Below, one piece after another: positions 1 to 3,000 of a stretch of 9,387 nucleotides of DNA; the stretch's first letter is position 1, and each line of letters opens with the position of its first letter. Position numbers: made by a program. This DNA is from a virus (Duplodnaviria > Heunggongvirae > Uroviricota > Caudoviricetes), in IMG/VR virus record IMGVR_UViG_2684623171_000015, one strand, 5' to 3'.

Positions 1-3000
1 TGTCAGTTATCATCTTCGGTTACGGTTATCGGCAGAACGCCCTGCCGCTGACAAGAGCTTATTTGCCTGACCAATCTACTCCACATGATAGATAACTATC
101 ATTTATAACATTTCATTGATTAGTCTTTATTTTTCACTATGTTACAAATAACAACTCCGTCAAAAACAGCGAAATTAACTACACCATTAACTACACCGTT
201 TCACGAACAATATCGAACAACCACGAACAAAGATCAACACGCTTTAACCGTTATCATTTTCCGGCCATCCGTTATGAAGCTGGTGGATGTTCCCCGATAT
301 GGGTATCCCCACCTACCTGGCTTTTTTTCCGGTTAAATGTTAATCAGGCTGGTGGCCTTTACATACCCTTGATCACGGTAATGATGATTCAGGTGCGTAC
401 CTTTTCCCCAGTGGGGTAAAAGCTCCAACCGTAACGATGTTCGTTGTGGTTGCCTTGATGGTCTGCGTGGTCATTATGACCATTCAGAATTTGAAGGGTG
501 ATGTTTCCGATCTCCTCAAATTGAGGATTGTGGAAGAATCAATGGGTTAGTCTTACTTTCCCAACATCCCCCAATGGGGGTTTTCGAAATAATCAATGGG
601 TTAGGCCATAGTGCAATTTTGCACTATGGAACAATTCCAACCAGTTATCGGCATCAGGCCCACCAGCCAACGCAATTTTGCGCTTTGCTTTAATCTCAGT
701 AAGTTACCGCGCCAATTTCCGCAGTCTGTGGAAATTGGGAAGAATCAACGGGTTAGGCTGGTTTCCCCGATGTTCGCCGCTGGCGAATTTCGAAAATATC
801 AACCAGTTACCGCCGTATCCCGATATGGTGATCCCCATATCGAGATTGGATACCTGGCTTTTTTTCCGGTTAAACGTTAATCAGGCTGGTGGGCTTTACA
901 TACCCTTGATCACGGTAATGATGATTCAGGTGCTTCCCCGATATGGTGATCCCCATATCGGGATAGATGCTGGAAAAATCAGCTTTTCGCCAGAACGGTG
1001 ACGGCCTTATCGAGTTTTTGCCATCCGCAATAGGTGATTGCCCTGAACGCTGTAGCGTCATTCTGGAAAAGGCTAACCGCCCCTGATTCGGTTTTTATTA
1101 CCGCCTCATCAGTTGGGGTTATAACCGTGGCTTCAACGTTAATAATCAGCTTTTGAGCGTCTATCAGCATCATGCGATCCGCCTGTTCGCTCACAATTAC
1201 CGGTATTCTCAAAAGCTCTATCTGCCAGAACTCAGCATCAGTAAGCTGTAAGGCGTTTTCTACGGGCAATATTAGCGACGACGTGGAAAGCGTGTTACCG
1301 TTCGCTATGTGCTTTTTGAAAATCTCTATGAAGTTTTCGGCCTCATCAGCACCATTAAGCACGCCCTCAGGGGATACGCCAGCCACCTCCTGATCACTGG
1401 AAAGAAATTTTTTATCTATTTCTTTCACCGATTCCGATGTGATCAAGTCTCTGATCGCTGAATTTGTACCAGGGGTGCTAAATTTGATTAGCTCGTTATT
1501 CAGCATCACAATAGCGCCAAGTTTGCACAATTTTAGCGCACTTTCGTTTACTTCTCCCTCTTTGACAGGGATTTCTTCGGCTTCTTTAAGCCATTTACTA
1601 CCCTTGCCTGATATTGAATGCAATTTTGCGCCAAACGGAAGATTAAGCGCGCTGCTGATTAGCTTGCCTGGTACAGACTGCGAAAAAATATACTCGCCAA
1701 GCTCTCTTACTATCGGCTCTGCCACCAGCGACGGCATGTTATCCGTAGTCATTCTGTTGACGATGGATTTTTCAAGAAATTTCGATACTGCCGGATCATT
1801 TCTTTTCGTCATCTCTATAGCGTCAGCATGGCTAAATTTACACGATGCCAGCACGCTGGCGGCGCGAACTGCTGACACGCCTTTCATGTTTTTACAGATC
1901 ATCTTCTTCCTCCTCCTGGAAGCACGGGTTTAGTGTTTCGTGAAAATATGGCATCAGAACAGCGGCGGCCTGTAACCGTATTTCGGTCGACTGCTGCTTG
2001 TCGTTCATGATTTCCGTGAGTACATCAATAGGGTCTGTGATGTATTCGCTCATAGTTCGCTACCTCAGTGTTTTAAGTCTGTTGGTGGCTTAGGGATGGG
2101 GAACCGATTTGAGTAGACACTAGCGGCATTGAGTTTTTTAACCTCTTTTTTCCCAATGCTGCCGATCTTGCGGTGGGTGAACTGGGCCAGCTTAAACGCG
2201 GCATCTAAAGCCAGTTTTGGATCTGTGTCCATGTTGTCAATCAGTATCCTGCCCATTGCTTTGATGGGGTCGGGTAGGCCGTTATCCATCATCTCAATGG
2301 TGTTAATTGATGCCCGTTCCGGTGTAACTTTTTCGGTAACTTTCTTTGTAACTTTTTTCGGTTTTGTAACCTGAAAAGTTACATCAGAAGTTACAGCCTT
2401 AAGATACTTTTTCACCTCAGGATCGTTGGATAGCTGCCAGCCTTTAACCCTTGCGGTCTTTTCGCTGTATCCCGCATGTATAGCGGCTTCCGTGGGATTT
2501 GCGCCCCTTGATAACGCATCAGCAAACCGCTTTTTTTTGGTCGTTAATGCCATGCAAAAACCTCGTTTTGAGGGGGTGTAACTTTTCGTGTAACTTTTTT
2601 GAAAAGCAAAATTTTCTACGAATGAGACGGGGGGCGGTGTCCAGGGTGATCGACTTTCCGGCCGGAACACTCCCCCCCCCCATGTCATTGCTCACCGAGT
2701 AACGAGATCAGGCCTTCAACTTCATTACTCAGCTTGTTTATTCGTGTCTCAAGCTCTGCGATCTTTTCCATCAATGGCGCTATGGTGTCTCTTGTTTCCT
2801 CGCCAATGGCCTTAATGATGCTTGCCTCGCGTTCTGTGATAGCCATTTGTTATGCCTCACCTGTTGCAATGCCCAGTCTTTCGCGTAACAGCACACGTGC
2901 AAGATGACCTATTGTTGGCGTGGCGGCTCTGCCGTAGATGCCAGCTTCATTCATCCGGCGAATAACATCGAATTGAATTTTTTTAAGCTCGTTTAGGATC

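What the first reader, a model, noticed from the sequence alone, without database searches (positions are those of the whole stretch)
85..240. 18-bp dyad and helically phased tandem repeats at the left edge
ATGATAG-ATAA-CTATCAT (85-102) is followed by two perfect tandem 12-mers ATTAACTACACC and four 10-bp-phased (A/T)CGAACAA repeats. Tandem sites at helical periodicity are typical of cooperative protein binding (iterons, partition sites, or integrase arm-type sites near an attachment site). This could mark the far end of the island (attR arm sites) or a second origin-like locus.
Basis: partly seen in the sequence, partly recalled or inferred. Interest (0 to 1): 0.4.

Follow-up and report, generated by a model that had tools for sequence, protein, structure and literature searches.

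The report
Attachment-site arm of a phage satellite
The repeats mark the junction where a 9.5-kb phage-satellite island joins the E. coli chromosome: host target sequence followed by docking sites for the island's integrase and probably its excision factor, an ordinary, P4-like arrangement.

Summary
The window is an E. coli O157:H7 PICI-type satellite inserted between clpS and yljB/cspD. Positions 1-106 are core chromosome, found in 5425 of 5426 genomes. The 18-bp dyad is host attB sequence that overlaps the crossover block ATAACTATCAT (92-102). That block recurs beyond int, outside the window.

The tandem 12-mers and the 10-bp-phased heptamers are island DNA, and both recur in the same order and orientation just upstream of the int start codon. 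Related islands at three different chromosomal sites keep a doubled ACTACACC motif 77-78 bp and 132 bp from the crossover centre. Phage P4 and a Klebsiella satellite have the same doubled 12-bp layout with other sequences. A similar doubled motif is published for helper-embedded PICIs.

I read the 12-mers as integrase arm-type sites. I read the heptamers, less firmly, as sites for the island's AlpA/Vis-like excision factor. They share GTTCG at 10-bp phase with the mapped TorI sites of prophage KplE1, and similar arrays lie upstream of alpA in relatives. An origin or partition role is not supported.

This is a new member of a known kind and of low interest.

The parts
1..91 (.). Host chromosome: the clpS upstream region. 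clpS starts immediately left of position 1 on the - strand.
   Evidence: Window 1-106 matches 5425 of 5426 complete E. coli genomes at about 99%. Annotation of L001, L002 and L012 places clpS next to position 1.
85..102 (.). It is host attB sequence, present unchanged in island-free K-12.
   Evidence: K-12 attB reads ccacATGATAGATAACTATCATctatcg. By itself the dyad is at chance level.
86..93 (+). Inferred host-side core-type integrase half-site (B), TGATAGAT.
   Evidence: Inference from symmetry. attB is TGATAGAT-AACTATC-ATCTATCG. The reconstructed attP of three lineages is TGATAAA(A/T)-7 bp-(A/T)T(T/A)TA(T/A)(C/A)A.
92..102 (.). Identity block ATAACTATCAT, shared by attB, attR and attL. Strand exchange occurs here, with a likely 7-bp overlap AACTATC at 94-100. 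The yljB stop codon is the complement of TCA at 99-101.
   Evidence: The block occurs exactly twice in L001, at 10092 and 19622, flanking the island. G91 is host-type in attR while attL carries the island-type A, so the crossover lies to the right of 91.
101..108 (+). Inferred island-side core-type half-site (C'), ATTTATAA.
   Evidence: T-TAT--C is conserved next to the core in P arms from three att specificities. It is the inverted partner of the invariant TGATAAA on the int side.
109..121 (-). IHF-like site AATCAATGAAATG, with one mismatch to WATCAANNNNTTR. This is a weak inference.
   Evidence: Read from the sequence. The equivalent place in EcCICFT073 (CAAGCCATTGATT, complement AATCAATGGCTTG) is a perfect match. 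No perfect IHF match lies in the window's arm.
174..197 (+). Doubled 12-mer ATTAACTACACC x2: the proposed pair of integrase arm-type sites of the P arm.
   Evidence: Its near edge is 77 bp from the overlap centre. The twin copy lies 132 bp from the centre on the int side in all six islands measured. Phage P4 has annotated 12-bp 'attP arm sequence repeats' in the same tandem layout.
204..240 (+). Four heptamers at 10-bp phase: CGAACAA at 204, 214 and 224, and a degenerate TCAACAC at 234. Proposed sites for the AlpA/Vis-type directionality factor.
   Evidence: A matching four-unit array lies on the int-side arm. Mapped TorI sites have the same GTTCG/10-bp grammar. Similar arrays lie upstream of alpA in relatives.
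7078..7302 (-). alpA: a 74-aa winged-helix protein, the proposed trans-acting factor for the heptamers.
   Evidence: Pfam Phage_AlpA, E 3.4e-16. 43% identical to P4 Vis, E 8e-18. 31% identical to TorI, E 3e-5.
8164..9387 (-). int: a 407-aa tyrosine recombinase with an N-terminal arm-binding domain, the proposed trans-acting factor for the 12-mers and core sites.
   Evidence: Pfam Arm-DNA-bind_3, E 2.1e-16, plus Phage_integrase, E 1.6e-17.

Best explanation
Window 85-240 is the int-distal attachment junction (attR, the BOP' type by lambda convention) of a roughly 9.5-kb PICI/P4-like phage satellite. The satellite is integrated between clpS and yljB/cspD.

Shown:
- The island starts within ATAACTATCAT (92-102), and the same block ends the island beyond int.
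- The dyad is host attB.
- The doubled 12-mer and the phased heptamers are island DNA. They are duplicated, co-oriented, on the other arm just upstream of int.
- The doubled motif sits at fixed distances from the crossover in relatives that use three different chromosomal targets.

Inferred mechanism:
- The four 12-mer half-sites (two per arm) are bound by the N-terminal arm-binding domains of the integrase tetramer.
- The catalytic domains bind the imperfect inverted core sites around a 7-bp overlap (TGATAGAT | AACTATC | ATTTATAA in attR).
- DNA bending, probably helped by IHF, bridges arm to core.
- The heptamer arrays are bound head-to-tail, one helical turn apart, by the island's AlpA/Vis-type winged-helix protein. 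This would shape attL and attR for excision. On the int side it would also sit over the int leader or promoter region.
For: Junction:
- Window 1-106 is universal in E. coli, while 1-330 is covered (>=80% of its length, so well beyond position 106) in only 365 genomes.
- The K-12 attB sequence is known, and the identity block recurs at both island ends.

Both arms:
- ACTACACC-N4-ACTACACC occurs exactly twice in each of six islands, once per arm, and nowhere else in 21-35 kb.

Fixed geometry:
- The motif lies 77-78 bp and 132 bp from the overlap centre at the cspD/clpS, phoQ/roxA and tqsA sites.

Selection:
- Motif columns are invariant while spacers and flanks diverge.

Covariation with the integrase:
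- The tqsA lineage, whose Int N-domain differs, has AGTGACTACACC.
- A Klebsiella satellite with 48%-identical Int has (G/A)TGTTTATACA doubled on both arms.
- P4, with 22%-identical Int, has doubled TGCCCCC 12-mers annotated as attP arm repeats.
- Helper-embedded PICIs have a doubled TGTATTGC at 81 and 132 bp (PMC10111431).

The integrase carries Arm-DNA-bind_3.

Heptamers and AlpA:
- Mapped TorI sites are GTTCG/GATCG at 10-bp phase upstream of intS (PMC2951348), and TorI and P4 Vis are homologues of this AlpA.
- Arrays of 5-6 phased nGnACAA lie between int and alpA in EcCICFT073-type islands. AlpA activates its own promoter there and drives int-dependent excision (PMC6092414).
- Such proteins typically bind direct repeats one helical turn apart (PMC7498355 abstract; PMC11963761).
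Against: - No binding data exist for this element, so assigning the two motif classes to Int and AlpA is inference.
- In EcCICFT073, AlpA did not change expression of a Pint reporter. That is unexpected if AlpA sits on arrays between the promoter and int.
- In the window's own lineage an extra ORF fills the int-alpA gap. Only two CGAAC, 10 bp apart, lie near alpA, so the promoter-array argument rests on relatives.
- The B- versus C-lineage comparison is not independent evidence, because their heptamer segments are identical by descent.
- The core half-sites and the 7-bp overlap are deduced from symmetry only.
- The IHF sites in the arms are imperfect.
Confidence: 0.8

Rival explanations
1. All repeats, 12-mers and heptamers alike, are integrase arm-type sites. 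AlpA acts only as a transcription activator elsewhere and does not bind the att arms.
For: AlpA had no effect on a Pint reporter in EcCICFT073. Both motif classes are confined to int-linked DNA and travel with the int module. The authors of PMC10111431 also left open which protein binds their doubled motif.
Against: The heptamer arrays also occur upstream of alpA and, in the EDL933 island, at one internal site (L008 9972-9995), where no recombination happens. The 12-mers never do. GTTCG at 10-bp phase is the mapped site of the homologous factor TorI, not of IntS. One arm-binding domain is unlikely to read two unrelated motifs.
Confidence: 0.15
2. The heptamers are replication iterons, a crr-like second origin region next to attP as in phage P4, bound by the island's primase/helicase.
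For: In P4 the cis-required replication region crr lies about 200 bp from the attP core on the same side. P4 type-1 iterons (GGTGAACA) share GAACA with CGAACAA.
Against: EcCICFT073 and the EDL933 island have identical heptamer arrays on both arms. Their replication proteins are of different types: a 584-aa P4-family primase versus a 710-aa DUF927 protein. The arrays track the int-alpA module instead. PICI origins are reported downstream of pri (PMC10111431). The array is duplicated directly in front of int.
Confidence: 0.04
3. It is a partition (centromere-like) site, or a small protein gene (ORF 139-336, 65 aa) whose repeats encode KLTTPLTTP.
For: Tandem phased repeats resemble parS-type sites. 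An ATG-initiated ORF spans the repeats.
Against: No partition genes were recognised in the island's annotation or among the ten ORFs scanned with Pfam, and PICIs are reported to lack a plasmid state (PMC6092414). The ORF has no Pfam match and is not annotated in RefSeq. Its ATG is GCG in L004, and the ORF region is unalignable in the CFT073 lineage while the motifs persist.
Confidence: 0.01

Closest known systems
Phage P4 attP (Pierson and Kahn 1987 arm repeats, as annotated in NC_001609)
   Same: Two adjacent 12-bp arm repeats lie on each side of the core, all co-oriented. One pair starts 16 nt (P4) or 23 nt (here) upstream of the int ATG. The integrase has the same arm-binding domain family. 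A Vis/AlpA winged-helix excision factor is 43% identical. Phased heptamer-like repeats (CGGACAA/CGGAAGA/AGGACGA) follow the P4 pair too.
   Different: The motif sequence differs (TGCCCCC versus ACTACACC), and Int is only 22% identical. P4 targets a tRNA-Leu gene; this island targets an intergenic/yljB 3' end site. The pair-to-pair distance is 186 bp in P4 and 209-210 bp here. P4 has an extra inverted copy over the int start and one inside int.
Doubled motif of helper-embedded PICIs (PMC10111431)
   Same: A tandem doubled motif of period 12 occurs twice per attP, co-oriented, at 81 +/- 2 and 132 +/- 2 bp from the attP centre. Here the distances are 77-78 and 132 bp. The element class is the same (int-alpA-pri PICIs).
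   Different: The core sequence is TGTATTGC there and ACTACACC here. That paper reported its motif as unique to helper-embedded PICIs. Here equivalent doubled motifs appear in ordinary chromosomal PICIs at three targets, joined to a heptamer array that the paper does not describe.
KplE1 (CPS-53) attL with IntS and TorI sites (PMC2951348)
   Same: The order core, two factor sites, a block of factor sites at 10-bp phase, integrase arm sites, int ATG is the same. The factor motif GTTCG is the complement of CGAAC. IntS has the same domain set, and TorI is a homologue of AlpA.
   Different: IntS arm sites are TAAA-containing and are not 12-bp tandem pairs. Here a factor-type array also sits on the int-distal arm, outside the arm pair. 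Binding is experimentally mapped in KplE1 and not mapped here.
Lambda attP
   Same: A heterobivalent integrase, arm-type sites on both arms, IHF-assisted bending, and an excision factor bound to adjacent direct repeats. This is established knowledge, summarised in PMC2951348.
   Different: From my own knowledge, not tested here: lambda has five arm sites of mixed orientation, and its Xis sites lie on the P arm only. The arm-binding domain family also differs.

Membership tests
Attachment site of a heterobivalent tyrosine integrase (lambda/P4 type) | Lies exactly at the boundary between universal host DNA and island DNA | tested here: met
   Window 1-106 is present in 5425/5426 genomes; sequence beyond 106 is found only in island carriers.
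Attachment site of a heterobivalent tyrosine integrase (lambda/P4 type) | A short identity block is repeated at both island ends and present once in the empty site | tested here: met
   ATAACTATCAT occurs at both ends of the island and once in K-12.
Attachment site of a heterobivalent tyrosine integrase (lambda/P4 type) | An adjacent integrase with a separate arm-binding domain | tested here: met
   Arm-DNA-bind_3, E 2.1e-16, and Phage_integrase, E 1.6e-17.
Attachment site of a heterobivalent tyrosine integrase (lambda/P4 type) | The arm motif is present on both arms, rare elsewhere, at fixed spacing, and covaries with the integrase clade | tested here: met
   for occurrence and spacing; for motif variants across clades.
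Attachment site of a heterobivalent tyrosine integrase (lambda/P4 type) | Physical binding of the Int N-domain to the 12-mers and a requirement for them in recombination | not testable with these tools
   Needs EMSA or footprinting and att-site mutagenesis.
P4-type attP layout | Adjacent 12-bp arm repeats in pairs on each side of the core, co-oriented, with one pair just upstream of int | tested here: met
   The P4 record annotates pairs at 3942-3965 and 4151-4174 around the core at 4078-4097. Here the pairs are at 174-197 and +24 to +47 beyond the window end.
Binding array of a winged-helix directionality factor (Xis/Vis/TorI/AlpA) | Direct repeats about one helical turn apart within att arms | tested here: met
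   Exact 10-bp phase on both arms.
Binding array of a winged-helix directionality factor (Xis/Vis/TorI/AlpA) | The element encodes such a factor | tested here: met
   Phage_AlpA, E 3.4e-16; 43% identical to P4 Vis.
Binding array of a winged-helix directionality factor (Xis/Vis/TorI/AlpA) | The same motif occurs at the factor's own regulated promoter | tested here: inconclusive
   Clear in the EcCICFT073, L009 and Shigella lineages. In the window only two CGAAC, 10 bp apart, lie just upstream of alpA.
Binding array of a winged-helix directionality factor (Xis/Vis/TorI/AlpA) | Binding of the factor to the repeats | not testable with these tools
   No experiment was possible. The closest mapped case is TorI on GTTCG.
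Replication-origin iterons | The repeats covary with the replication initiator and lie beside it | tested here: not met
   Identical arrays occur with a P4-family primase (L007) and a DUF927 protein (L008). The arrays lie about 3.5 kb from pri in the window.
Partition site | Partner partition genes in the element | tested here: not met
   No such gene was recognised in the annotation of the island or among the ten ORFs scanned with Pfam.

The most novel reading that the evidence does not exclude
The arms are built from a conserved composite module: two integrase arm sites, a 6-bp gap, then four factor sites at helical phase. The module is duplicated co-oriented on both sides of the core at fixed distances across PICI integrase clades. 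The same AlpA-type arrays are reused between int and alpA. One small protein would then couple helper-phage sensing (alpA induction), self-activation and excision through a single DNA grammar. This would generalise the 'doubled motif' thought to be peculiar to helper-embedded PICIs.
Probability: 0.45. Interest if true: 0.35.

Novelty: new member of a known kind. Interest (0 to 1): 0.2.

Why it matters
- It fixes the exact left boundary and crossover of this O157:H7 satellite.
- It shows that the host dyad is the target, not part of the element.
- It suggests that the doubled-motif geometry published for one PICI subclade is a general P4-family att layout, with a motif sequence that changes with the integrase.
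- That is useful for annotating island ends and for designing int-attP integration tools.
- It does not change how site-specific recombination is understood.

Tried and rejected
- An integrase-based scan of one-genome-per-species contigs returned only two loci, one useful (Shigella, P' arm only), so cross-species sampling is thin.
- A literature search for the motif strings found nothing relevant.
- Sigma-70 and terminator scans of both arms and of the alpA region gave counts at shuffle level. No int promoter could be placed.
- Perfect IHF consensus matches are absent from the arm; all four in the window lie in the 500-815 region.
- Rfam and tRNA scans of the window were empty, so no RNA gene explains the region.
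- The CP4So AlpA paper holds no AlpA binding-site data.
- P4 'type 2' origin repeats upstream of vis are unrelated to the heptamers.
- The coding hypothesis for ORF 139-336 was rejected.

Full report
**What the window is**

The window is from an E. coli O157:H7-type chromosome. Strain FRIK2455 matches it over all 9387 bases with one 1-nt gap. It holds a small island, all on the minus strand, with these genes:
- int (8164-9387)
- a 257-aa ORF
- alpA (7078-7302)
- a D5/P4-type primase (3713-5467)
- a small-terminase-like gene
- a capsid-like gene

This is the gene set of a Gram-negative phage-inducible chromosomal island (PICI) as described in PMC6092414. clpS begins immediately left of position 1. 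yljB and cspD lie beyond int.

**Checking the observation**

The dyad (85-102), the two perfect 12-mers (174-197) and CGAACAA at 204, 214 and 224 are all there.
- The fourth heptamer (234-240, TCAACAC) is degenerate.
- The phased array is far beyond chance: 2 matches against 0.08 expected, and no shuffle reached 2.
- It is the only run of four tetramers at exact 10-bp spacing in the window.
- ACTACACC occurs only in the 12-mers.
- The dyad alone is unremarkable statistically: 13 such dyads in the window, 4.3 +/- 2.3 in shuffles.

**Where the island ends**

Window 1-106 is found in 5425 of 5426 complete E. coli genomes. A match covering at least 80% of window 1-330, and so running well beyond 106, is found in only 365.

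The three junction sequences are:
- Island-free K-12: ccacATGATAGATAACTATCATctatcgttggc.
- The window: the same up to ...CTATCAT, then island DNA (ttataaca...).
- Beyond int...ctaactGATAAATAACTATCATctatcgttggc.

The identity block is therefore ATAACTATCAT (92-102). It occurs exactly twice in the locus, once at each island end. G91 is host-type in the window and A on the int side, so the exchange lies to its right.

It overlaps the block, and the yljB stop codon (complement of 99-101) lies inside it, so yljB stays intact after insertion.

Comparing reconstructed attP sites of three lineages gives an invariant TGATAAA on the int side. An imperfect inverted partner (TTTATAA, TTTATCA or TATATAA) lies on the far side of a 7-9 bp variable centre. 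attB itself reads TGATAGAT-AACTATC-ATCTATCG. I infer core-type half-sites at 86-93 and 101-108 around an overlap at 94-100. This part is inference from symmetry only.

Between the int start codon and the core, just outside the window, lies this sequence:
- ATTAACTACACC ATTGACTACACC
- a 6-nt gap
- CGTACAA-ggg-CGAACTG-tga-CGAACAA-ggg-CGAACAA
- about 55 AT-rich bases
- CGAACAC-cca-CGAACAC
- 6 nt, then the core

The module 'two 12-mers, 6 nt, four heptamers at 10-bp phase' is thus present on both arms in the same orientation. The spacers between heptamers differ between the arms while the heptamers are kept.

**Relatives**

Other PICIs at the same site (L003, L004) carry different cargo but keep the motif block invariant, while the flanks vary. 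Related integrases, with int 5' ends about 74-79% identical at the DNA level, serve two other targets: phoQ/roxA and tqsA. The phoQ/roxA site holds EcCICFT073 itself (L007) and the capsid-forming island of EDL933 (L008). The tqsA site is L009.

All of them have the same two-arm module.
- The near edge of the doubled motif is 77-78 bp from the overlap centre on the far arm.
- It is exactly 132 bp from the centre on the int arm in all six islands.
- Their heptamers are nGnACAA (TGCACAA, GCTACAA, GAAACAA, GGAACAA) rather than CGAACAA.
- The tqsA lineage has AGTGACTACACC, and its Int N-domain differs at many positions.

More distant relatives keep the layout with new words.
- A Klebsiella satellite (vB_KppS-Ant, Int 48% identical) has GTGTTTATACAA-ATGTTTATACAG 17 nt before int. 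It has GTGTTTATACAT-ATGTTTATACAC roughly 210 bp further on.
- Phage P4 (Int 22% identical) has annotated 12-bp 'attP arm sequence repeats' as adjacent pairs at 3942-3965 and 4151-4174, around the core at 4078-4097.
- PMC10111431 reports a doubled TGTATTGC motif in helper-embedded PICIs. It is co-oriented, at 81 +/- 2 and 132 +/- 2 bp from the attP centre. The authors propose binding by the four arm domains of the integrase tetramer, or else by AlpA.

The window's 12-mers are the local version of this P4-family arm pair. The integrase has the Arm-DNA-bind_3 domain.

**Who binds the heptamers**

This is inference. The evidence for the AlpA protein is as follows.
- The 12-mers occur only at the arms. 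Phased ACAA arrays also occur between int and alpA on the alpA-coding strand: six units in EcCICFT073, five in L009 and in Shigella. There is one further array at L008 9972-9995, an internal site of the EDL933 island.
- The window's AlpA is 43% identical to P4 Vis, the P4 excision factor and regulator (roles as cited in PMC7286903). It is 31% identical to TorI of prophage KplE1.
- The mapped TorI sites are GTTCG, GATCG and GTCCG. They include a block of three at 10-bp phase directly upstream of the intS promoter, followed by the IntS arm sites and the start codon (PMC2951348; sequence).
- Read toward int, the window island has TTGTTCG-ccc-TTGTTCG-tca-CAGTTCG-ccc-TTGTACG, then the 12-mer pair, then ATG. 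That is the same order and the same GTTCG word.
- Winged-helix directionality factors generally bind direct repeats one turn apart and often act at a promoter too (PMC7498355 abstract; PMC11963761).

Against this: AlpA did not alter a Pint reporter in EcCICFT073. The window's own lineage has only two CGAAC near alpA.

**Rival readings**

- Iterons or a crr-like region. P4 does have crr next to attP, and its type-1 iterons share GAACA. However, EcCICFT073 and the EDL933 island have identical heptamer arrays with different replication proteins. PICI origins are reported downstream of pri.
- Partition site. No partner genes were recognised in the island's annotation or among the ten ORFs scanned with Pfam. 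PICIs are reported not to have a plasmid state.
- Coding ORF 139-336. It has no family match, is not annotated in RefSeq, and its start codon is lost in L004.
- RNA gene. There are no Rfam or tRNA matches.

**Verdict**

It is the int-distal att junction of a PICI satellite. It comprises host attB core sequence, then a P4-type pair of integrase arm sites, then an array that most likely binds the AlpA/Vis excision factor.

It is a new member of a well-known kind. The modest new point is that the doubled-motif geometry described for helper-embedded PICIs, and for P4 long ago, also holds for ordinary chromosomal PICIs at three targets. In these it is joined to a heptamer array.

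Noticed in passing
window 500-815: About six units, each a different perfect hairpin or palindrome followed by a conserved tail GAAnAATCAAyGGGTTAGG. The tails are perfect IHF consensus sites at 537, 591, 743 and 797 (4 found, 0.61 expected). The same unit type occurs at the same end of EcCICFT073, the EDL933 island and L009. This may be the PICI-specific cosB, whose R elements were not defined in PMC6739421.
   Followed up: partly
window 314-401 and 851-938: An 88-nt direct repeat (95% identical). The second copy is flanked on both sides by the palindrome CCCGATATGGTGATCCCCATATCG(G/A)G (819-846 and 937-964); the first is preceded by a degenerate copy (293-320). [quoted passage not shown] I did not align them to the published cos sequences.
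   Followed up: partly
window 499-555: One hairpin-plus-IHF unit is 90-91% identical to a 57-nt stretch inside the roi/anti-repressor gene of Stx1 phages, phage Lahn2 and JLK-2012.
   Followed up: no
window 7303-7393 (- strand, upstream of alpA): Directly before the alpA ATG lies CGTCCTCG-ttcggcaacgtt-CGAGGACG-TTTTTTT, a terminator-like hairpin holding two GTTCG 10 bp apart. Further upstream are two GTGATATCAC palindromes. The tool scan missed the hairpin because its loop is 12 nt.
   Followed up: partly
L007 16239-16295; L009 16228-16275; L005 11279-11325; L010 7130-7325: Long arrays of 10-bp-phased direct repeats lie between int and alpA in related PICIs. They are nGnACAA x5-6 in E. coli and Shigella. 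In the Klebsiella satellite they are CATTCAACAG x4, CGACACGTAA x3 and GTTCATC x5.
   Followed up: partly
window 136-163 (- strand): A promoter-like site TTGACG-16-CATAGT points out of the island toward the core and clpS. In the excised circle it would point toward int. TTGACG is kept in L003 and L004 but not in the CFT073 lineage. The score is at chance level.
   Followed up: partly
window 2324-2362, 2576-2598, 3299-3319, 3471-3490: Short tandem repeats (periods 12, 12, 11 and 8). The last two lie downstream of the primase gene, where a PICI origin would be expected.
   Followed up: no
L001 19556-19565 and equivalents (int-side arm): TTTATAATCA is invariant across all lineages in the middle of the int-side arm. 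It could be an IHF-like site, or a -10 element (TATAAT on the + strand; TATAAA on the int strand). Not resolved.
   Followed up: partly
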